Below are positions 16,757-60,687 of a DNA stretch of 64,000 nt, in pieces. How positions within the stretch are numbered: position 1 is the first letter of the stretch; every line of letters starts with the position of its first letter. The notes under the pieces were generated by a model that did not search any database, was not told where the DNA came from, and was given only the letters and a program-made list of their open reading frames with translations. Both the position numbers and the translations under genes were made by a program. Source of the stretch: Nanobdellota archaeon (GTDB lineage Archaea > Nanobdellota > Nanobdellia > UBA10117 > ARS21); NCBI GenBank assembly GCA_014240455.1, contig JAAZWY010000001.1:87924-151923 (forward strand). Direction: 5' to 3'.

Positions 16757-17116
16757 TTGTTAACTTATTTAATGAATAACTTACGTAAACTAATTCGTTA
16801 CACTTTAGTAGCATTTATAATGGTTTTTGCCATTAATTTATTTATGGTAGATAAAGTTGCAAGTAAAGGAGATACTGTTGCAGTTGATTATTGGTTGACT
16901 GTTGATGGAAAACAAATTGATACATCTGAAGGACGAGGAGTATTTGAATTTACTCTTTTTGCAGGACAAGTAATTCCAGGATTTGATAAAACAGTCGATG
17001 GAATGAAAGTTGGTGAGGAGAAGACTGTTTCTCTTTCAGGAAATGATGCTTACACAGCAGGACCTCTTGCTGGAAAAGTATTGAACTTTAAAGTAATTTT
17101 AAGAGAGATTAAGTAG
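16757..17116 (+). CDS. FKBP-type peptidyl-prolyl cis-trans isomerase with N-terminal TM anchor
   Basis: GDTVAVDYWLTVDGKQIDTS...FTLFAGQVIPGFDK.V.GMKVGE FKBP signature; hydrophobic N-terminus. Confidence 0.8.
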   Translation: MLTYLMNNLRKLIRYTLVAFIMVFAINLFMVDKVASKGDTVAVDYWLTVDGKQIDTSEGRGVFEFTLFAGQVIPGFDKTVDGMKVGEEKTVSLSGNDAYTAGPLAGKVLNFKVILREIK

Positions 17117-17146
17117 ATTTTTAATCTCTTATTTTTTATTTTTATT

Positions 17147-17782
17147 ATGCAAGACGTAGTTATGCTTCCGTCAAAACCTGAAAAATTTATCAGAGCAGCT
17201 CGAGAATTTGGTTATTCTGATTTGATATTTCTCTTTGAAGGAACGAGTGCCGAGTTTAATAGGTTAAAGAAACAGTTTGATGTAAATCTTGGATTATTAT
17301 TTTCTCCTAAAAATATGGATGATTTTCAGAAGTTGAAAAAGTATGACGGGCCGGTTTTAATAGTTGGTTCTGCAACTGATGAGAAATTATTACGACGAAT
17401 TTTGGAGAATAAAAAAATCCACGGTTTTACAAATGTTGAACATGAGCTTGGAAAAGATCATACTCATTATCGTAAATCAAACATGAATCAAGTTCTTGCA
17501 AAGATTGCTCATGATAAAAATAAGACTTACTATGTAAATTTTTCAAAAGTTTTGCATTCTAATAAACGTCCAAAGTTGATTGGACGAATGCTTCAGAATA
17601 TTAAATTCATGAACAAGTATCGAGTTAATATTTCAATAGGTTCTTTTGCTAAGGATGAAAAAGGTTTCAGATTGTATGATAATTTGGAAAGCTTTGCAAA
17701 AGTTTTGAAAGCTCGAAAGTTAAAGGCGATTGATGTGCCCGTAGTTTCGAACTTACCAAAAGGTGTTCGGATTATTGGTTAA
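17147..17782 (+). CDS. rnp3: RNase P protein component 3 (Rpp30 family)
   Basis: Region QVLAKIAHDKN...FSKVLHSNKRPKLIGRMLQNIKFMNKYRVNISIGSFA resembles archaeal Rpp30 (VLAK...L.SN...R..L....K...KY.V..S.SA). Confidence 0.6.
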   Translation: MQDVVMLPSKPEKFIRAAREFGYSDLIFLFEGTSAEFNRLKKQFDVNLGLLFSPKNMDDFQKLKKYDGPVLIVGSATDEKLLRRILENKKIHGFTNVEHELGKDHTHYRKSNMNQVLAKIAHDKNKTYYVNFSKVLHSNKRPKLIGRMLQNIKFMNKYRVNISIGSFAKDEKGFRLYDNLESFAKVLKARKLKAIDVPVVSNLPKGVRIIG

Positions 17783-23206: not shown

Positions 23207-23899
23207 CTACTTCTTTGAAGACATGGTTTTTATGCCTTCCGAAGTGGTAACCATAAATTGTAACCTATTTTCTTGGAATTCTTTCCCCAGAACTTTCTTG
23301 AAGACGTTTTTTGCTAAATCTGCTCCTTCTGTGATGGAAAGGTTTGATTTCCATCCTTTTTCTAGAAGTTTGTTTGCTTCCATAGAATTTGAGCCGATAG
23401 CTTTTGCTTTGTATTGGAAGTAAATTCCTGCTGGTTCTGTCATATATAGTCGTGGACCGTCTTCTCCGACGTCTCCGACCAAGAATGATACTCCGAAAGG
23501 TCTGATGCCTCCGTATTGAGTGAAACTTTGACAAATGTCTGAGATGAATTTTACTAATGCTTCACCTGATAATTCTTCCCCATAACTCATTTTGTGTTCT
23601 TGTGCCTTTATTCTTGATTTCTTTAGTAGAACTCTTGCATCACCAATGTATCCTGCCGGGGTCGCGATGATGTTTTTGTTTACTTCTGAAACTTTTGATA
23701 ATGATTCTGGTACAATTAATGGATCGAATCGATGTGTGTCTGCTGCTAGGACTACTCCGTCCTTACATGTGATTCCCATTATTAATGAACCGCTGTCAAT
23801 TGCTTTCTTTGCGTATTCTACTTGTAAAATTCTTCCGTCTGGGCTGAAAACTGTAATAGCTCTATCGTAACCCATTGCTTGATTTGGTATAACTTGCAT
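23207..23899 (-). CDS. psmA: Proteasome subunit alpha
   Basis: GYDRAITVFSPDGRILQVEYA signature. Confidence 0.9.
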   Translation of the reverse strand: MQVIPNQAMGYDRAITVFSPDGRILQVEYAKKAIDSGSLIMGITCKDGVVLAADTHRFDPLIVPESLSKVSEVNKNIIATPAGYIGDARVLLKKSRIKAQEHKMSYGEELSGEALVKFISDICQSFTQYGGIRPFGVSFLVGDVGEDGPRLYMTEPAGIYFQYKAKAIGSNSMEANKLLEKGWKSNLSITEGADLAKNVFKKVLGKEFQENRLQFMVTTSEGIKTMSSKK

Positions 23900-24090
23900 A
23901 AGATTGAAATGGAGTGAATATTTTTAAAGGTTGTTGGTGGTTGCTACTTTCGAGATTTCTTTATAGCTTTTAATTGTTGCATAGTAATAGAATATTTCCA
24001 AAGTTTGTGTTTTGTATAGCCGATGAATTTCTTTATTGCGTTGTACATAGTTCTAAAAAGATCTTTTAGTTTAAAATAATTTGGTAAAAT

Positions 24091-24290
24091 GCGAGTCTGG
24101 TTGAATGCAAGCACTCAACCGTCTTCACGAGTGAACATCAACCGCAAGCGGCTTCAGTTCGGGTGAACCTTCCGAAGAAAGTTCGGGATGAACATCCTTT
24201 GGCCGAAGCCAAATTCAGTTCGGGTTGAATTGTCCGAAAACAATTCGGGTAGAAATTTTCAACCGCAAGCGGCTTCCAATTTCTATTCAC
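24091..24290. repeat. GC-rich block of tandem hairpin-forming repeats (3-4 units agttcggg-N-tgaa...ccgaa) bracketed by 18-nt direct repeat tcaaccgcaagcggcttc (24138-24155 and 24259-24276); candidate ncRNA or DNA-binding array
   Basis: Read directly from sequence; GC about 48 percent versus about 33 percent surroundings; additional hairpins ggttga(n10)tcaacc at 24099-24120 and ttcac-ga-gtgaa at 24124-24135. Confidence 0.5.
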
Positions 24291-24376
24291 CTCTAATAAT
24301 TTGAGTATATAAGCCTTTCGGTGGAGAAAAAATGACTAAAAAGTAGTTTTTTTAAGAGTTCTTAGTAATTCTATTT

Positions 24377-25789
24377 ATGAAGAAAGTATCTAAGTCCGAT
24401 TATGTGCAGAGTTTGAAATGTCTCAACTATGTGTGGCATAAATTCAACGATAAGGAAAAACTACCTTCTCTTGACAGAGTATTCATTGTCCAAAGAGGAG
24501 TTGAGTTTGGAGCGCTCGCTCAGAAATTATATTCTGATGGAATTTCAATTAAATTTAATTACAAACAAGCTTCCAAAGATACAAGTGAATCTTTAGATTT
24601 AGGAAAACCAATTTTTGAAGCAACATTTGAAACTGATAAACTATATTGCATGGTTGATATACTTGTTCCATCTGAAGGCGGCTGGGATATTGTTGAAGTT
24701 AAAAGCGGATCAAGTGTTAAGAAAGAACATTATGATGATGTGGCTTTTCAGAGGTATGTATTGGAAAAATCAGGGATTAAAGTAAATAAATGTTATTTGA
24801 TGCACGCAAATAAAAAATATATTCGAAAAGGAGATATTGATATTAAGAGCCTATTCATGAAGACCGATATTACTGAGAAAGTTGAAGAAGTTATAAACAC
24901 AGTTCCGGGAAATATTGAAAGACTTCTCTCTTATGTTTCAAAAGATATGCCAGACAACAAACATAAATTCTGTTCAAAACCAACGAAATGCGATTTGAGA
25001 CAAATCTGTTGGGATCATTTACCTGAACATAATATTTTAGAATTACACGGACTTTGGTTTAGTAAAGCAGAGCCTTTTATGGATGAAGGTAAATTATCTA
25101 TCCTGGATTTACCTGACACGTTTTTTGAGAAACATAAACATACTATTCAAAAAAATGCTATATCTTCGGGTGAACCTCAAATTGATCATAAAAAGATTAG
25201 AGAGTTTAAAGAAACGCTAACTTATCCACTTTCTCATTTTGATTTTGAAACTTTGGGAACGCCGATTCCTTTACACGACGGTTTGAATCCTTGGGGAAAA
25301 TTTGCATTCCAATACTCAATTCATGTTGATGATGGGAAGAAGATAAAACACTATGAGTTTTTAGCTTCAGATGATAAAGATCCTCAGGAGGCACTAGTTA
25401 AACAGTTAATTAAAGATATGCCTACGACTGGAAGTATTGTTACTTTCAATATGGGTTTTGAGAAAGGTATTCTTCGGGATCTTGGAAAGCGTTTTCCTGC
25501 TTATGCAGATAAGTTGAATGATATGATTAAACGAGTTGTTGATTTACAAACTGTGTTTAAGAAGTTTCATTACCATCATCCTGCTCAGAAAGGGAGTAAT
25601 TCTTTGAAAGATGTACTTCCTGTATTTTCTGATAAGAAACATAGTGAGTTAGAGATTCAAGATGGGACTGATGCTTTTACCGCTTTTTATGATAAATATT
25701 ATTTGGGTAAGGATGTTTCAAGAAAGGCTTTACTTGATTATTGTGCATTAGATACTCTTGCAATGGTTGAGATACTTGAAGGGATTTAG
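24377..25789 (+). CDS. Fusion nuclease: N-terminal Cas4/RecB-like PD-(D/E)XK domain (with Cys cluster) + C-terminal DnaQ-like DEDD 3'-5' exonuclease domain (DUF2779-like architecture)
   Basis: N-terminal Y..SL.C..Y.W, D...EVK and QRY motifs; Cys at C-x5-C-x8-C; C-terminal FDFET ... FNMGFE ... YCALD acidic exonuclease motifs. Confidence 0.6.
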   Translation: MKKVSKSDYVQSLKCLNYVWHKFNDKEKLPSLDRVFIVQRGVEFGALAQKLYSDGISIKFNYKQASKDTSESLDLGKPIFEATFETDKLYCMVDILVPSEGGWDIVEVKSGSSVKKEHYDDVAFQRYVLEKSGIKVNKCYLMHANKKYIRKGDIDIKSLFMKTDITEKVEEVINTVPGNIERLLSYVSKDMPDNKHKFCSKPTKCDLRQICWDHLPEHNILELHGLWFSKAEPFMDEGKLSILDLPDTFFEKHKHTIQKNAISSGEPQIDHKKIREFKETLTYPLSHFDFETLGTPIPLHDGLNPWGKFAFQYSIHVDDGKKIKHYEFLASDDKDPQEALVKQLIKDMPTTGSIVTFNMGFEKGILRDLGKRFPAYADKLNDMIKRVVDLQTVFKKFHYHHPAQKGSNSLKDVLPVFSDKKHSELEIQDGTDAFTAFYDKYYLGKDVSRKALLDYCALDTLAMVEILEGI

Positions 25790-25843: not shown

Positions 25844-26161
25844 TCACAACTTTCTCAAAATACCACTAACCTTCTCAGCAGAAACAGTAGCCTTCTTACC
25901 TTTAACATCCTTGATCAAAGCCAATGCTGCTTTTGTTTCATTTAACATTTTAGAATTTGTACGTAAAACTCCAGTCTGGATTTTAGTATCATACTTCATA
26001 AATTGTATTCCGGCTTTTGCTACACCTAGCTCACCCAGAAAACGTTTACATCCCGCGACTATTGCAATACCAGCGTCTTTTGAAGAGAGTGTTTGTTTTG
26101 AAGATATTTTAAATTGAACATATCTAGGATTTTCTTTCAAGACAGGTAAAATAGGTTTCAT
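25844..26161 (-). CDS. rnp2: RNase P protein component 2 (Pop5/Rpp14 family)
   Basis: LPVLKENPRYVQFKI ... FLGELGVAKAG ... KIQTGVLR ... GKKA ... VSGILRKL matches archaeal Pop5 pattern. Confidence 0.75.
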   Translation of the reverse strand: MKPILPVLKENPRYVQFKISSKQTLSSKDAGIAIVAGCKRFLGELGVAKAGIQFMKYDTKIQTGVLRTNSKMLNETKAALALIKDVKGKKATVSAEKVSGILRKL

Positions 26162-26392: not shown

Positions 26393-26664
26393 TATCTACG
26401 ACCTCCTCTACTTCCACCTGCTTCGATTTCAGTTTGAGTTAACATAATAATGTCACCAGGTCTAGTTGGACCATAAACTAATCTTCGCATAATTTTACCA
26501 GCATCTCTGCCGTCTAGAATTTTACATCGAACCATGTAAACAGCTTGTTTTCCAGATTGTCTTTCAAGACGTTCAATAACTTCAGCAGGATAAGCAGTTA
26601 ATAGTTTACTGTCTCCTTTTACTTTTTCTTTTGGTGCGTCTTTAACTTTCTGATTTTTTGCCAT
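26392..26664 (-). CDS. rps28e: 30S ribosomal protein S28e
   Basis: AEVIE...G..G.V..V.CKILDGRD.GKI..R.V.GP.R.GDIIML..TE.EA. Confidence 0.85.
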   Translation of the reverse strand: MAKNQKVKDAPKEKVKGDSKLLTAYPAEVIERLERQSGKQAVYMVRCKILDGRDAGKIMRRLVYGPTRPGDIIMLTQTEIEAGGSRGGRR

Positions 26665-27416
26665 TACTCAGTCTTTTCTTCTGAAGTTTCAGCTTCTTTC
26701 TTTTTAGGCTTTTCTTCAACAGGTGCTTCTACTTCCGCTTCTTCAGCTGGTTTTTCTTCAGTAGCTTCCTCTTCTGAAGTTTCAGCTTCTTCCTTTTTAT
26801 CTTCTTTGGATTCTGCTTCTTCTGTCTTTTCTTCAACAGGTGCTTCTACTTCTTCAGCCGGAGTTTCTTCAGCAGGTTCTTCTACAACTTCCTCAGTTTT
26901 TTCTTCTGATTCAGCCGGAGTTTCTTCAACAGCTTTTTCAACCTTTGCAGGTTTTTCAGCTGGTGCTTCTGTCTTTTCTTCAGCAGATTCTTCTACTTTT
27001 TCCTTTGGAGCTTTCTTTTCTGCTGGTTTTTCTTCAGCAGGTTTTTCAGCCTTTACAGGTTCAGCTTCTGCTTTCATTAAAATTTGAATATCTTCTAAAA
27101 GATTGTTTAGTTTCTTTTGAGCTTCACCAGGATTTGCAATTGCTACAGCAGCTGTTGCGACAGGTAATCCTGCAGCTGCGCCTAATTCTGCTTTAGAAGG
27201 CACTTCAACGTGCATAATTTCTTTATCCTTAGCTAAAAGAGCTAAATGTTGAATAATTTCGCCTGGAGATACGTCAGTAGCTACAATAGATAGCTTAGCT
27301 TCACCTCTTTCCAAGGACTTTGTTACTTCGTTTACACCTTTCCGGATTTTTCCGTCAGTACGAGAATCCTCAATAATTGAGTAGATTCTTTCAATAATAT
27401 CTTTTGTTAGTTCCAT
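26664..27416 (-). CDS. rpl7ae: 50S ribosomal protein L7Ae (K-turn binding) with unusual about 130-aa C-terminal Lys/Glu/Ala/Pro-rich low-complexity extension
   Basis: N-terminal 120 aa match L7Ae (GVNEVTK...AKL.I.A.DVSP.EII.HL..LA); tail EEKPAE/EETPAE repeats with DNA-level direct repeats. Confidence 0.8.
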   Translation of the reverse strand: MELTKDIIERIYSIIEDSRTDGKIRKGVNEVTKSLERGEAKLSIVATDVSPGEIIQHLALLAKDKEIMHVEVPSKAELGAAAGLPVATAAVAIANPGEAQKKLNNLLEDIQILMKAEAEPVKAEKPAEEKPAEKKAPKEKVEESAEEKTEAPAEKPAKVEKAVEETPAESEEKTEEVVEEPAEETPAEEVEAPVEEKTEEAESKEDKKEEAETSEEEATEEKPAEEAEVEAPVEEKPKKKEAETSEEKTE

Positions 27417-27480: not shown

Positions 27481-28677
27481 TTAGAGCTTGCGGTTTAGAG
27501 CATCTAGCGTCTTGTAAACTTCCTTCTTGTCTACTGTTTTATCTCGTTTGGTTGGACCCATTTCGTAGAAGAATTTCAACAGAGATTTTGCTTTAATTCC
27601 TCGTTTCCGTATTGATGCCAGAGTTTCTACTCTTTCATCATCATAACCGGTGTACTTTCCTTCCTCAACACCTTTTCTAACATCAGATGCAGAAATAATC
27701 ATATTCTTGAAATTGATTCTTCCCAAGTGGATGTACTCAGGATAAGTCCATCCTAAGAAGTCGTAAATCATTTTTTGCTTTTTAGTATTATCTTCATGAT
27801 CTTTTCCTCTAATTACATGAGTCATTTTTAGATCATAGTCATCGATTGCCACTGAGAAGTTCATAAGAGGCCATACTCTTACTTTATTTCCAACTTTTGG
27901 ATGTTTTCCTCCTGAAATTCTGAATGCTACCCACTCTTTTAGCGCAGGATTTTTACCCTTTAAATTTGTTTTAACTCTGACGACTGCTTCACCAGGATTA
28001 TATTTTCCAGTGAGCATTCTTTTCCACTTTCGCAATACTTCCTTAAGATCATCTCTTCGACCGAACGGTTGAATTCCCTTTTTCAATTTTGCTTTAACTT
28101 CTTCAGGAGTTTCTTCGCAGACGTATAAATGTCCCATTTTTATTAATTGTTCAGCGTATTTGTAGTAAGTTTTAATTCGAGCAGATTGAATGTAAGTCTC
28201 GCTAGGTTTTCCTGCCAACCAAGTGTAATCTTTTGGAATCATTTTGTAGAATTCTTTGAAGTTTGCGTCAGGATTTGTGTCTTCGATTCTTAGGATGTGT
28301 TTTCCTTTGTATTTGTCAGCGTAGATTTTATTAAGTGAGATAACCAAAGCGTGACCGATGTGTAAAGGTCCAGATGCAGAAGGAGCAAAACGTGCTCGGA
28401 AATTCTTGCCAACATTTGGAAGATCAATTAGTTCTTTTTTTACTTTGACCTTTTTATTGAAAAACGAGGGATTGATTTTTTTGAGTTGAGCTTTTTGCTT
28501 TGAAAGTGAGAGTTTGTTTACTTTTTTGATAGTATCCGAAACTTCTTTTCCAATTGCCCTTAGTTTTGATTTGTCTTTGACTGTAGGGATTATTTTATTC
28601 ATAACTGCTTTAGGATTAGCTTTGCCTTTGAAAGCTACTGCGTTTTCTAAAGTAAGTTGTAGAATCTTTTTCTTCAT
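27481..28677 (-). CDS. gltX: Glutamyl-tRNA synthetase, archaeal type, catalytic core only (398 aa; anticodon-binding domains absent)
   Basis: Archaeal-type N-terminal NAVAFKGKANPKAVM, HIGH motif (GPLHIGHA), RIEDTNP; ends at ...YKTLDALNRKL where homologs continue into C-terminal domains. Confidence 0.7.
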   Translation of the reverse strand: MKKKILQLTLENAVAFKGKANPKAVMNKIIPTVKDKSKLRAIGKEVSDTIKKVNKLSLSKQKAQLKKINPSFFNKKVKVKKELIDLPNVGKNFRARFAPSASGPLHIGHALVISLNKIYADKYKGKHILRIEDTNPDANFKEFYKMIPKDYTWLAGKPSETYIQSARIKTYYKYAEQLIKMGHLYVCEETPEEVKAKLKKGIQPFGRRDDLKEVLRKWKRMLTGKYNPGEAVVRVKTNLKGKNPALKEWVAFRISGGKHPKVGNKVRVWPLMNFSVAIDDYDLKMTHVIRGKDHEDNTKKQKMIYDFLGWTYPEYIHLGRINFKNMIISASDVRKGVEEGKYTGYDDERVETLASIRKRGIKAKSLLKFFYEMGPTKRDKTVDKKEVYKTLDALNRKL

Positions 28678-60612: not shown

Positions 60613-60687
60613 GGTCCGGTAGCGTAGCCTGGTTAGCGCGCACGACTGATAATCGTGAGGTCGCAAGTTCAAATCTTGCCCGGACCA
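60613..60687 (+). tRNA. tRNA-Ile (anticodon GAU), no encoded CCA
   Basis: Hand-folded cloverleaf: acceptor GGTCCGG/CCGGACC, D-stem GCGT/GCGC, anticodon stem CACGA/TCGTG loop CTGATAA, T-arm GCAAG-TTCAAAT-CTTGC, discriminator A. Confidence 0.85.

What the first reader, a model, noticed from the sequence alone, without database searches (positions are those of the whole stretch)
24377..25789. PD-(D/E)XK(Cas4-like)+DEDD exonuclease fusion gene inserted into the exosome/proteasome superoperon
In archaea psmA is normally contiguous with the RNase P subunit genes (Pop5/Rpp30). Here a 470-aa + strand gene sits between psmA (23207-23899, -) and Pop5 (25844-26161, -), pointing against both. The protein combines a RecB/Cas4-like nuclease N-terminus (D...EVK, QRY, Cys cluster consistent with an Fe-S site) with a DnaQ-like DEDD exonuclease C-terminus (FDFET / FNMGFE / YCALD). 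This is the DUF2779-type architecture, mostly known from bacteria. Together with the adjacent repeat block it looks like an acquired single-gene island, possibly for defence or DNA repair.
Basis: partly seen in the sequence, partly recalled or inferred. Interest (0 to 1): 0.55.

Follow-up and report, generated by a model that had tools for sequence, protein, structure and literature searches.

The report
Relocated DUF2779 double-nuclease gene
A marine DPANN archaeon carries an intact gene for a widespread but never-tested enzyme with two DNA-cutting domains (DUF2779 family) that has moved into a normally unbroken housekeeping gene cluster; it is an ordinary member of its family, though the family keeps turning up beside anti-virus defence genes.

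Summary
Window 24377-25789 (+) is an intact 470-aa ORF between psmA and Pop5, which are both on the minus strand. It matches Pfam DUF2779, Cas_Cas4 and RNase_H_2. A confident AlphaFold model matches Cas4 in its N-terminal half and DEDD proofreading exonucleases in its C-terminal half. All catalytic residues and four cysteines are invariant across 38 homologues.

Pop5 and psmA are contiguous in eight of nine more distant relatives, so the placement is derived. However, the gene has native composition, is under purifying selection, and has no mobile-element hallmarks. In sister lineages the orthologue lies about 7 kb away, after FKBP-p87-p33, a site that is empty in this window. This is a relocation of a long-resident gene, not a recent acquisition.

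The "repeat block" is a separate, conserved array of UUCG/CUUG-capped hairpins on the minus strand, probably a new small RNA. A conserved 34-aa ORF lies beside it.

The architecture is already published, and the family has about 7,000 50%-identity clusters. One added observation: DUF2779 genes sit beside restriction-modification, GmrSD, Gabija-like, Qat, Pbe and WYL genes in most contexts examined. The likeliest role is a helicase-independent nuclease acting on DNA ends, in defence or repair. Verdict: a new member of a known kind, of modest interest.

The parts
24377..25789 (+). DUF2779-family gene, 470 aa plus stop. It encodes a Cas4-like nuclease fused to a DEDDy exonuclease.
   Evidence: The ORF is and the Pfam matches. 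The AlphaFold model has pLDDT 93.4 and pTM 0.88. dN/dS against orthologues is 0.10-0.27.
24575..25012 (+). N-terminal Cas4-like PD-(D/E)XK domain (Pfam stretch, residues 67-212). The domain also uses C15 near the N terminus. Key residues are E81, D94, E107, K109, Q125, C199, C205 and C211.
25235..25780 (+). C-terminal DEDDy 3'-5' exonuclease domain of the RNase H fold (residues 287-468). Motifs: Exo I D289/E291, Exo II N358-x2-F-E362, Exo III Y455-x3-D459. D389 is also invariant.
24338..24376 (+). The gene's own promoter-like stretch. A TATA-like TTTTTTTAAG at 24347-24356 is centred about 25 nt before the ATG, which suggests a leaderless mRNA.
   Evidence: This was read from the sequence. The same roughly 40 nt stays with the gene in L001, L005 and L021, although the upstream neighbour in L021 is different. 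It is an inference by eye, not a tool prediction.
24075..24290 (-). It is six consecutive hairpins capped by UUCG or CUUG tetraloops and separated by (A/U)ACCC linkers. Three hairpins carry tandem G.A internal loops. A TATA-like element, TTATATA on the minus strand, lies just upstream at 24306-24312.
   Evidence: The minus-strand fold has a z-score of -4.1, against -2.2 for the plus strand. It is conserved in 8 related loci, with whole hairpin modules gained, lost or swapped. 98.7% of cells pair, and most changes are GC<->GU, which keep pairing only on the minus strand. There is no Rfam match.
23944..24048 (-). Conserved 34-aa ORF, here called p34: MYNAIKKFIGYTKHKLWKYSITMQQLKAIKKSRK.
   Evidence: Substitutions fall every third base. 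Eight differences from L003 are all synonymous. dN/dS is 0-0.16. The ORF is present in L001, L003, L004, L005, L019-L021, L023 and L026.
23900..23943 (-). The psmA promoter-proximal stretch, which stays attached to psmA when other genes are inserted upstream.
   Evidence: The same sequence abuts psmA in L004, L006 and L021, although different genes lie beyond it.
23207..23899 (-). psmA, the proteasome alpha subunit and left flank of the insertion.
   Evidence: Pfam Proteasome scores 2.1e-45.
25844..26161 (-). Pop5/Rpp14 RNase P subunit, the right flank. It is convergent with the DUF2779 gene, with a 54-nt gap.
   Evidence: Pfam RNase_P_Rpp14 scores 2e-12.
17114..17146 (.). Empty site between FKBP and p192. 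Sister lineages carry p87-p33-DUF2779-p111 at this position.
   Evidence: FKBP maps to 16784-17113 and p192 to 17216-17776 by tblastn. L022 and L007 show the filled arrangement.

Best explanation
The gene is a functional, solo member of the DUF2779 (PF11074) family. One polypeptide joins a Cas4-like PD-(D/E)XK nuclease with four conserved cysteines to a DEDDy 3'-5' exonuclease. This much is shown.

The gene has long been resident in this marine Woesearchaeota clade. In the window's subclade it moved about 7 kb, from the end of an FKBP-p87-p33 operon to the Pop5|psmA junction. There it has its own promoter-like sequence. Its 3' flank is a landing site for variable genes, mostly restriction and defence genes, in related genomes. 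This part is inferred from synteny.

The inferred mechanism is as follows. With no helicase partner, the enzyme acts on DNA ends. The Cas4-like domain cuts or degrades 5'-ended single strands. The DEDDy domain trims 3' ends. Together they degrade or resect both strands of broken linear DNA. The most likely biological role is as an accessory to restriction-type defence, clearing foreign DNA once it has been cut, much as RecBCD does in E. coli. A role in host double-strand-break processing is also possible.
For: Identity and architecture:
- Pfam matches above the gathering cut-offs.
- AlphaFold model with pLDDT 93.4.
- Catalytic residues and four cysteines are invariant.
- Most of the 150 best of 7,153 family representatives align over the whole length.

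Functional gene: dN/dS is 0.10-0.27.

Relocation:
- Pop5 and psmA are contiguous in L007-L010, L012-L015 and L018.
- The orthologue follows FKBP-p87-p33 in L016, L017, L002, L022 and L007.
- That site is empty in the window.
- L008 lacks exactly this one gene.
- Codon usage is native.

Defence context inside the clade: L005 has PbeA, PbeC and a C5 methyltransferase. L024 has a type IIG R-M enzyme. L019 has a C5 methyltransferase fragment. L016 has PADLOC candidate PDC-S14.

Defence context outside the clade:
- hsdMSR-DUF2779-Mrr-SNF2.
- CARF and GmrSD.
- HicAB.
- Plasmids with PD-(D/E)XK, WYL, DEAD, PLD, AAA, NERD, Qat and dGTPase genes.
- Viral-collection contigs with an OLD-like ATPase plus UvrD helicase (Gabija-like), GmrSD, and ResIII/RE plus PIF1.

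DNA as substrate: the best C-terminal domain matches are DNA polymerase proofreading domains.
Against: - No activity has been measured for any DUF2779 protein in the literature searched.
- The window copy has no defence neighbour; a 54-nt gap separates it from Pop5.
- PADLOC recognises only the Cas4 domain, not a defence system.
- The defence association was counted by hand in about 25 contexts with no background control. Many of those contexts are plasmids or provirus-like contigs, which are rich in defence genes anyway.
- In Mollicutes a distant DUF2779 relative is quasi-essential or needed for growth in cell culture. That points to housekeeping DNA metabolism.
- The cysteine spacing, C-x5-C-x5-C, differs from the C-x2-C-x5-C recalled for classical Cas4. 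The four cysteines could not be checked for clustering in the model.
Confidence: 0.55

Rival explanations
1. The protein is a housekeeping nuclease for DNA repair, recombination or nucleotide recycling. In a small genome that may lack RecBCD/AddAB-type enzymes, it resects breaks or recycles DNA. Its position beside variable genes would then be incidental.
For: The gene is conserved under purifying selection across a clade whose core proteins differ by about 30%. The Mycoplasma homologue MMSYN1_0389 is quasi-essential in JCVI-syn3.0. A transposon mutant in M. bovis Mbov_0804 grows poorly in cell culture, as do replication, repair and nanoRNase mutants. Dna2 and MGME1 are among the structural matches. 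In sister lineages the gene is in an operon with FKBP-type housekeeping genes.
Against: L008 has lost exactly this gene while keeping both neighbours. It is absent near the superoperon in more distant relatives. Synonymous divergence is 2-4 times that of the adjacent core genes in close relatives. Neighbours are repeatedly defence genes. The Mollicutes proteins belong to a distant, longer subfamily: UU173_fam scores 43 bits against a cut-off of 225.
Confidence: 0.3
2. The protein is an RNA-processing factor tied to the exosome and RNase P superoperon. It would be an Rrp6/RNase D-like DEDDy ribonuclease, with a PD-(D/E)XK RNase domain, working with the neighbouring RNA machinery.
Confidence: 0.07
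3. The gene is a recently acquired foreign single-gene island, for example from bacteria.
For: It interrupts conserved synteny and points against both neighbours. Most named homologues are bacterial. Outside the clade, identity drops sharply to about 41%.
Against: GC, GC3 and codon usage are native. Orthologues occur throughout the clade with divergence similar to core genes. The clade forms its own deep branch with no bacterial sister. There are no integrase, tRNA or target-site-duplication hallmarks. An empty ancestral site lies 7 kb away.
Confidence: 0.05

Closest known systems
DUF2779 / PF11074 family (for example Mycoplasma mycoides MMSYN1_0389; family F.17 of Majorek et al. 2014)
   Same: It has the same collinear two-domain architecture, the same D...E-x-K and DEDDy residues, and a Pfam score far above the cut-off.
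   Different: The window protein keeps all four cysteines, whereas MMSYN1_0389 keeps only two. It belongs to a separate, deep, Woesearchaeota-specific subfamily with at most about 42% identity to everything else. No family member has been characterised.
CRISPR-associated Cas4 (PF01930; SSO0001 4ic1, Pcal_0546 4r5q, Cas4-Cas1 7mi4)
   Different: No cas1, cas2 or CRISPR array is nearby. It fails the TIGR00372 cas4 equivalog (12 bits against 65). It is fused to a second nuclease.
DEDDy proofreading-type 3'-5' exonucleases (family-B DNA polymerase exonuclease domains, RNase D, WRN exonuclease), and DEDDh relatives such as DnaQ, TREX, MrfB and Cas2-DEDDh
   Same: It shares the RNase H-like fold and the Exo I, II and III motifs, with Tyr as the fifth residue.
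   Different: Exo II carries Glu (E362) where Asp is usual. The domain is not attached to a polymerase, helicase or Cas2.
TM0106 / COG2251 RecB-like nucleases (TIGR03491) and giant-virus 'YprB RNase H-like' proteins
   Same: They follow the same design, a Cas4-like domain followed by a PF13482 RNase H-like domain. Giant-virus proteins match the whole model, with TM about 0.6-0.66.
   Different: The score is well below the TIGR03491 cut-off (23 bits against 97). These are a sister family, not the same one.
RecBCD, AddAB and AdnAB end-processing machines (functional analogy only)
   Same: They contain a RecB-family nuclease with an Fe-S cluster that acts at DNA ends. They degrade restricted foreign DNA and resect breaks (established knowledge). 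AdnA and AddA appear among the fold matches.
   Different: The window protein has no helicase motor, and its second nuclease is a DEDD exonuclease rather than a second RecB domain.

Membership tests
DUF2779 (PF11074) | Match to the Pfam model above the gathering score | tested here: met
   132.3 bits against a cut-off of 23.3, covering profile positions 2-126 of 126.
DUF2779 (PF11074) | Full-length collinear architecture: Cas4-like N-terminal domain plus RNase H-like C-terminal domain, about 470-500 aa | tested here: met
   The top 120 homologues cover 92-100% of the query, apart from one fragment. Most of the 150 best representatives align over about residues 1-470.
DUF2779 (PF11074) | Conserved D/E-x-K and DEDD(y) residues | tested here: met
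   D94, E107, K109, D289, E291, E362, Y455 and D459 are invariant in 38 sequences. The same positions are described for MMSYN1_0389.
Cas4 proper (CRISPR adaptation nuclease) | PD-(D/E)XK core plus four-cysteine Fe-S module | tested here: met
Cas4 proper (CRISPR adaptation nuclease) | Equivalog-level sequence match (TIGR00372) | tested here: not met
   12.2 bits against a cut-off of 65.
Cas4 proper (CRISPR adaptation nuclease) | Encoded next to cas1/cas2 or a CRISPR array | tested here: not met
   The neighbours are psmA, p34, Pop5 and ribosomal genes. There is no CRISPR-like array in the 64 kb window.
DEDD 3'-5' exonuclease superfamily | Exo I (DxE), Exo II (Nx2-3[F/Y]D) and Exo III ([Y/H]x3D) motifs on an RNase H-like fold | tested here: met
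DEDD 3'-5' exonuclease superfamily | Metal-dependent 3'-5' exonuclease activity | not testable with these tools
   This needs biochemistry.
TM0106 family (TIGR03491) and UU173 family (NF045869) | Score above the curated cut-off | tested here: not met
   TIGR03491 scores 23 bits against 97.45. UU173_fam scores 43.3 bits against 225.
Horizontally acquired genomic island or mobile element | Atypical composition, an integrase or transposase, a tRNA or att target, flanking direct repeats | tested here: not met
   GC3 z = 0.34 and codon fit z = -0.16. The only tRNA gene is at 60613. The only flanking repeats are short, chance-level ones. No recombinase ORF is nearby.
Known anti-phage defence system (PADLOC-DB v2) | Match to a system-specific model, with partner genes present | tested here: not met
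   Only generic Cas4 models match. The window copy has no partner genes. Relatives sit beside defence genes, but this is association only.

The most novel reading that the evidence does not exclude
DUF2779 proteins would be an unrecognised immune nuclease shared by bacteria, DPANN archaea and, as a sister architecture, giant viruses. They would work alone or as a common accessory that destroys DNA nicked or cut by restriction-type sensors. In this Woesearchaeota subclade the gene would anchor a defence-gene landing site inside the exosome superoperon, beside a new hairpin-array small RNA and a 34-aa protein that may belong to the same module.
Probability: 0.15. Interest if true: 0.6.

Novelty: new member of a known kind. 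Interest (0 to 1): 0.35.

Why it matters
The gene itself adds one more member to a large family whose Cas4-plus-DEDD architecture is already in print. Two results have some value.

First, the family's recurrent position beside restriction, GmrSD, Gabija-like, Qat, Pbe and WYL genes makes it a reasonable candidate for experimental defence screens. That holds across bacteria and DPANN archaea.

Second, the locus shows that even the strongly conserved archaeal exosome, proteasome and RNase P superoperon can be broken and used as an insertion site for variable genes in reduced DPANN genomes.

The hairpin-array RNA and the 34-aa ORF found beside the gene have no match in Rfam or Pfam. They may be the more original items here.

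Tried and rejected
- Rfam, at gathering and at E<=10 thresholds, gave nothing credible for the hairpin block.
- I considered box C/D sRNA, K-turn and H/ACA readings of the hairpins and rejected them by eye. The CUGA...UGAUG internal loops are symmetric with no 3-nt bulge. The spacing to the next CUGA is about 34 nt rather than about 12. The linkers are ACCC, not ANA.
- A CRISPR reading was rejected because the window has no array.
- An exact-motif scan of viral contigs gave 5 hits with no related context, probably chance.
- tblastn of the protein against 50,697 deposited phage genomes found nothing.
- A PDB sequence search found no relative, so fold searches were needed.
- The search for island hallmarks (flanking direct or inverted repeats, tRNA, recombinase) was negative.
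- The 101-aa eight-cysteine protein Zn101 follows the gene in L001 and L016. It was tested as a possible universal partner, but it is confined to this clade (3 clusters) and is absent from the window.
- The rise in L001-L016 identity along the gene could mean recombination, but it is equally explained by a better-conserved C-terminal domain. I left it open.
- The afdb50 fold library was unavailable.
- The 34-aa query was too short for the homology search. The 56-aa extended ORF found only clade members.
- The sigma-70 promoter scanner was not used because the organism is an archaeon. Promoter statements are by eye.
Full report
**1. The observation**

The window holds an ATG-to-stop ORF at 24377-25789 on the + strand, encoding 470 aa. 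On the minus strand, the left neighbour at 23207-23899 is a proteasome alpha subunit. The right neighbour at 25844-26161 is an Rpp14/Pop5 RNase P subunit. Around them lie SBDS, Rrp4, Rrp41, Rrp42, Rpb6 and S2 on one side and L24e, S28e and L7Ae on the other. Together these form the archaeal exosome, proteasome and RNase P superoperon. All flank genes except Rpb6 and S2 were confirmed by Pfam on the window itself; those two rest on the Pfam annotation of their L001 orthologues.

**2. What the protein is**

- Pfam gives DUF2779 (1.5e-38, 132 bits against 23.3), Cas_Cas4 (35.4 bits against 22.7, residues 67-212) and RNase_H_2 (residues 300-468).
- NCBIfam gives only sub-threshold matches to UU173_fam, TM0106 and cas4.
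- PADLOC recognises only generic Cas4 models.
- No solved structure is detectable by sequence.
- An AlphaFold2 model built on 38 homologues is confident, with pLDDT 93.4 and pTM 0.88.
- In the alignment the following are invariant: C15, C199, C205, C211; E81, D94, E107, K109, Q125; D289, E291, E362, D389, Y455, D459.

The exonuclease is of the DEDDy type, with Glu in Exo II.

**3. How common and how known**

An exhaustive HMMER scan finds 7,153 50%-identity cluster representatives at E<=1e-3 and 2,159 at E<=1e-30. Most of the 150 best matches align over the full length. The window's own clade collapses to one representative, and the next hit is 41% identical.

The architecture is already in the literature. 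Majorek et al. 2014 list DUF2779 (family F.17) as a predicted 3'-5' exonuclease that co-occurs with the PD-(D/E)XK-like domain DUF83. A 2026 mSphere paper describes the quasi-essential Mycoplasma homologue MMSYN1_0389 as a Cas4-like plus DEDD(y) fusion. An M. bovis transposon mutant in a DUF2779 gene grows poorly in cell culture. I found no biochemical characterisation in the library searched.

**4. Organism and synteny**

psmA-based loci from GTDB species genomes identify the source as a marine Woesearchaeota (DPANN) lineage. L003 is nearly identical to the window.

- Pop5 abuts psmA in eight of the nine more distant relatives, with gaps of about 20-240 nt. L011 carries an independent insertion of five small ORFs at that junction.
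- The pair is also contiguous in the metagenomic contig L018.
- In the window's subclade (psmA at 80% identity or more) the junction is broken. DUF2779 lies next to psmA in the window, L001, L005, L019, L021, L023 and L026, and further genes are inserted in L004, L006 and L021.
- In the sister lineages the orthologue is about 70% identical, and psmA is also about 69% identical. There it lies at the end of an FKBP-p87-p33 operon. In L007 and L022 that operon abuts the other end of the same superoperon. In L007 the orthologue overlaps p33.
- In the window that position is empty. FKBP ends at 17116 and p192 starts at 17147.
- L008 keeps p33 and p111 but lacks exactly the DUF2779 gene.

The placement is therefore derived, but the gene is an old resident that moved locally.

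**5. No sign of recent foreign origin**

- GC is 0.333 against a window mean of 0.350. GC3 has z = +0.34 and synonymous-codon fit has z = -0.16, relative to 61 window ORFs.
- There is no integrase, no tRNA target and no flanking duplication.
- dN/dS is 0.10-0.27.
- A neighbour-joining tree puts the clade on its own deep branch. Other Woesearchaeota DUF2779 proteins (P0038, P0110) fall elsewhere, and no bacterial sister appears.
- One oddity remains. In close relatives the gene's synonymous divergence (0.68-1.0) is 2-4 times that of adjacent core genes. L005 has a 95%-identical psmA but only a 73%-identical DUF2779. This suggests allele exchange or long-lived alleles, as seen in flexible-genome genes. 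Weaker codon constraint is an alternative explanation.

**6. The 'repeat block' and the spacer**

The 477-nt spacer is about 90% identical between the window, L001 and L005. That is higher than the DNA identity of the DUF2779 coding sequence in those pairs. It contains three units.

- *psmA promoter region.* It stays with psmA whatever lies upstream.
- *A 34-aa ORF on the minus strand at 23944-24048.* Its substitutions fall every third base, and its eight differences from L003 are all synonymous. It is restricted to this clade.
- *The hairpin block at about 24075-24290.* On the minus strand it folds into six consecutive hairpins capped by UUCG or CUUG tetraloops, with a z-score of -4.1 against -2.2 for the plus strand. 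The hairpins are joined by ACCC-type linkers, and three carry tandem G.A internal loops.

Related loci keep the hairpin design while losing, adding or swapping whole hairpin modules. 98.7% of cells pair. Most changes are GC<->GU, which keep pairing only on that strand. Only two pairs show changes on both sides, so covariation support is modest.

The block has its own TATA-like element, identified by eye. It is single-copy in the window and in each related locus examined and has no Rfam match. In L021 it lies on the other side of the DUF2779 gene, behind a membrane-protein gene. It is therefore an independent unit and not an island boundary.

**7. What the neighbours of DUF2779 genes say**

Within the clade, the gene's 3' flank carries different content in different genomes:

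| Locus | Content of the 3' flank |
|---|---|
| Window | Nothing (54 nt to Pop5) |
| L001 | Two clade-specific ORFs, Zn101 and p179 |
| L005 | An unannotated 225-aa ORF, a C5 methyltransferase, PbeC and PbeA |
| L024 | A type IIG restriction-modification enzyme |
| L019 | An unannotated 309-aa ORF next to a C5 methyltransferase fragment |
| L016 | Zn101, then PADLOC candidate PDC-S14 |

Outside the clade the contexts were:

- hsdM-hsdS-hsdR-DUF2779-Mrr-SNF2 in another Woesearchaeota.
- A CARF protein and GmrSD, then DUF2779 and Bro-N.
- HicAB.
- Smr and an ADP-ribosylglycohydrolase in Dehalogenimonas, which is not obviously defence.
- Bacterial plasmids with PD-(D/E)XK and WYL; DEAD, an ATPase and PLD; QatABCD-like genes (qatC and TatD annotated)-DUF2779-AAA-dGTPase; ATPase-DUF2779-WYL-PLD-DEAD; NERD, AAA and WYL.
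- IMG/VR contigs with an OLD-like ATPase plus UvrD helicase (Gabija-like), GmrSD, ResIII/RE plus PIF1, and SNF2.

No deposited phage genome encodes the protein. Giant-virus proteins share the whole two-domain fold. The association with defence genes is striking, but it was counted by hand without a background control.

**8. Most likely mechanism**

Shown: two intact nuclease active sites of known polarity classes in one helicase-less protein, under purifying selection, with its own promoter-like sequence.

Inferred: the enzyme works at DNA ends. The Cas4-like domain attacks 5'-ended single strands. The DEDDy domain trims 3' ends. Broken linear DNA would thus be degraded or resected from both strands.

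I judge the biological role most probably to be an accessory to restriction-type defence, with or without a share in break repair (0.55). A purely housekeeping role in repair or recycling is the main rival (0.3) and is supported by the Mollicutes data. An RNA role tied to the superoperon is unlikely (0.07). Recent foreign acquisition is largely refuted (0.05).

**9. Verdict**

The gene is a new member, in a distinct archaeal subfamily, of a known but uncharacterised kind. Its position is a lineage-specific rearrangement of a conserved superoperon. Interest is modest at 0.35. It is raised slightly by the family's defence-island habit and by the unannotated hairpin RNA and micro-ORF next door.

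Noticed in passing
window 24075-24290 (-); also L001 5719-5934, L003 58-296, L004 238-475, L005 7593-7827, L019 1407-1621, L021 7829-8098, L023 2743-2957: Candidate new structured small RNA of about 210 nt. It is six tandem hairpins capped by UUCG or CUUG tetraloops and joined by ACCC-type linkers, and three carry tandem G.A internal loops. Whole hairpin modules are gained, lost or swapped between relatives. It has its own TATA-like element (by eye), no Rfam match, and one copy in the window and in each related locus examined.
   Followed up: partly
window 23944-24048 (-): Conserved 34-aa basic micro-ORF, MYNAIKKFIGYTKHKLWKYSITMQQLKAIKKSRK. It differs from close relatives only by synonymous changes (dN/dS 0-0.16). 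It has no Pfam match and is found only in this clade.
   Followed up: partly
L001 7456-7761; L016 9463-9774; L002 and L017 likewise: A clade-specific 101-103-aa protein with eight cysteines (three CxxC motifs) directly follows the DUF2779 gene in two different genomic contexts, at 88% identity. It is absent from the window. It may be an occasional partner gene.
   Followed up: partly
L005 69-6072: In a close relative (psmA 95% identical) the 3' flank of the DUF2779 gene holds a defence island: PbeA, PbeC, a 160-aa ORF, a C5 DNA methyltransferase and a 225-aa ORF. Pop5 is not within 8 kb.
   Followed up: yes
L008 7950-8050 compared with L007 14970-16480: A clean presence/absence difference of only the DUF2779 gene between two related genomes. 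In L008 the p111 stop and the p33 stop are about 10 nt apart.
   Followed up: yes
window 24377-25789 compared with its flanks, in L001, L004, L005 and L023: Synonymous divergence of the DUF2779 gene (0.68-1.0) is 2-4 times that of adjacent superoperon genes (0.08-0.5). The L005 allele is far more diverged (73% aa) than its psmA (95%). This hints at allele exchange or old alleles.
   Followed up: partly
L011 6091-7996: An independent insertion of five small co-directional ORFs at the same Pop5|psmA junction in a distant Nanoarchaeota MAG. The junction may be breakage-prone more widely.
   Followed up: no
BFVD hits to the model of window 24377-25789: Giant-virus proteins match the whole two-domain model, with TM about 0.6-0.66. 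They include Cafeteria roenbergensis virus E3T4R0 'YprB RNase H-like' and proteins from Faunusvirus, Yasminevirus, Sylvanvirus and a Megaviridae sample. The same fusion design therefore exists in Nucleocytoviricota.
   Followed up: no
window 26664-27416 (-): The L7Ae gene carries a C-terminal extension of about 150 aa that is extremely acidic and repetitive (E/K/P/A-rich). It shows up as tandem repeats at 26816-26906.
   Followed up: no
window 27481-28677 (-): A 398-aa protein matches only the catalytic domain of class I Glu/Gln-tRNA synthetases and has no anticodon-binding domain match. It is conserved next to L7Ae in relatives.
   Followed up: no
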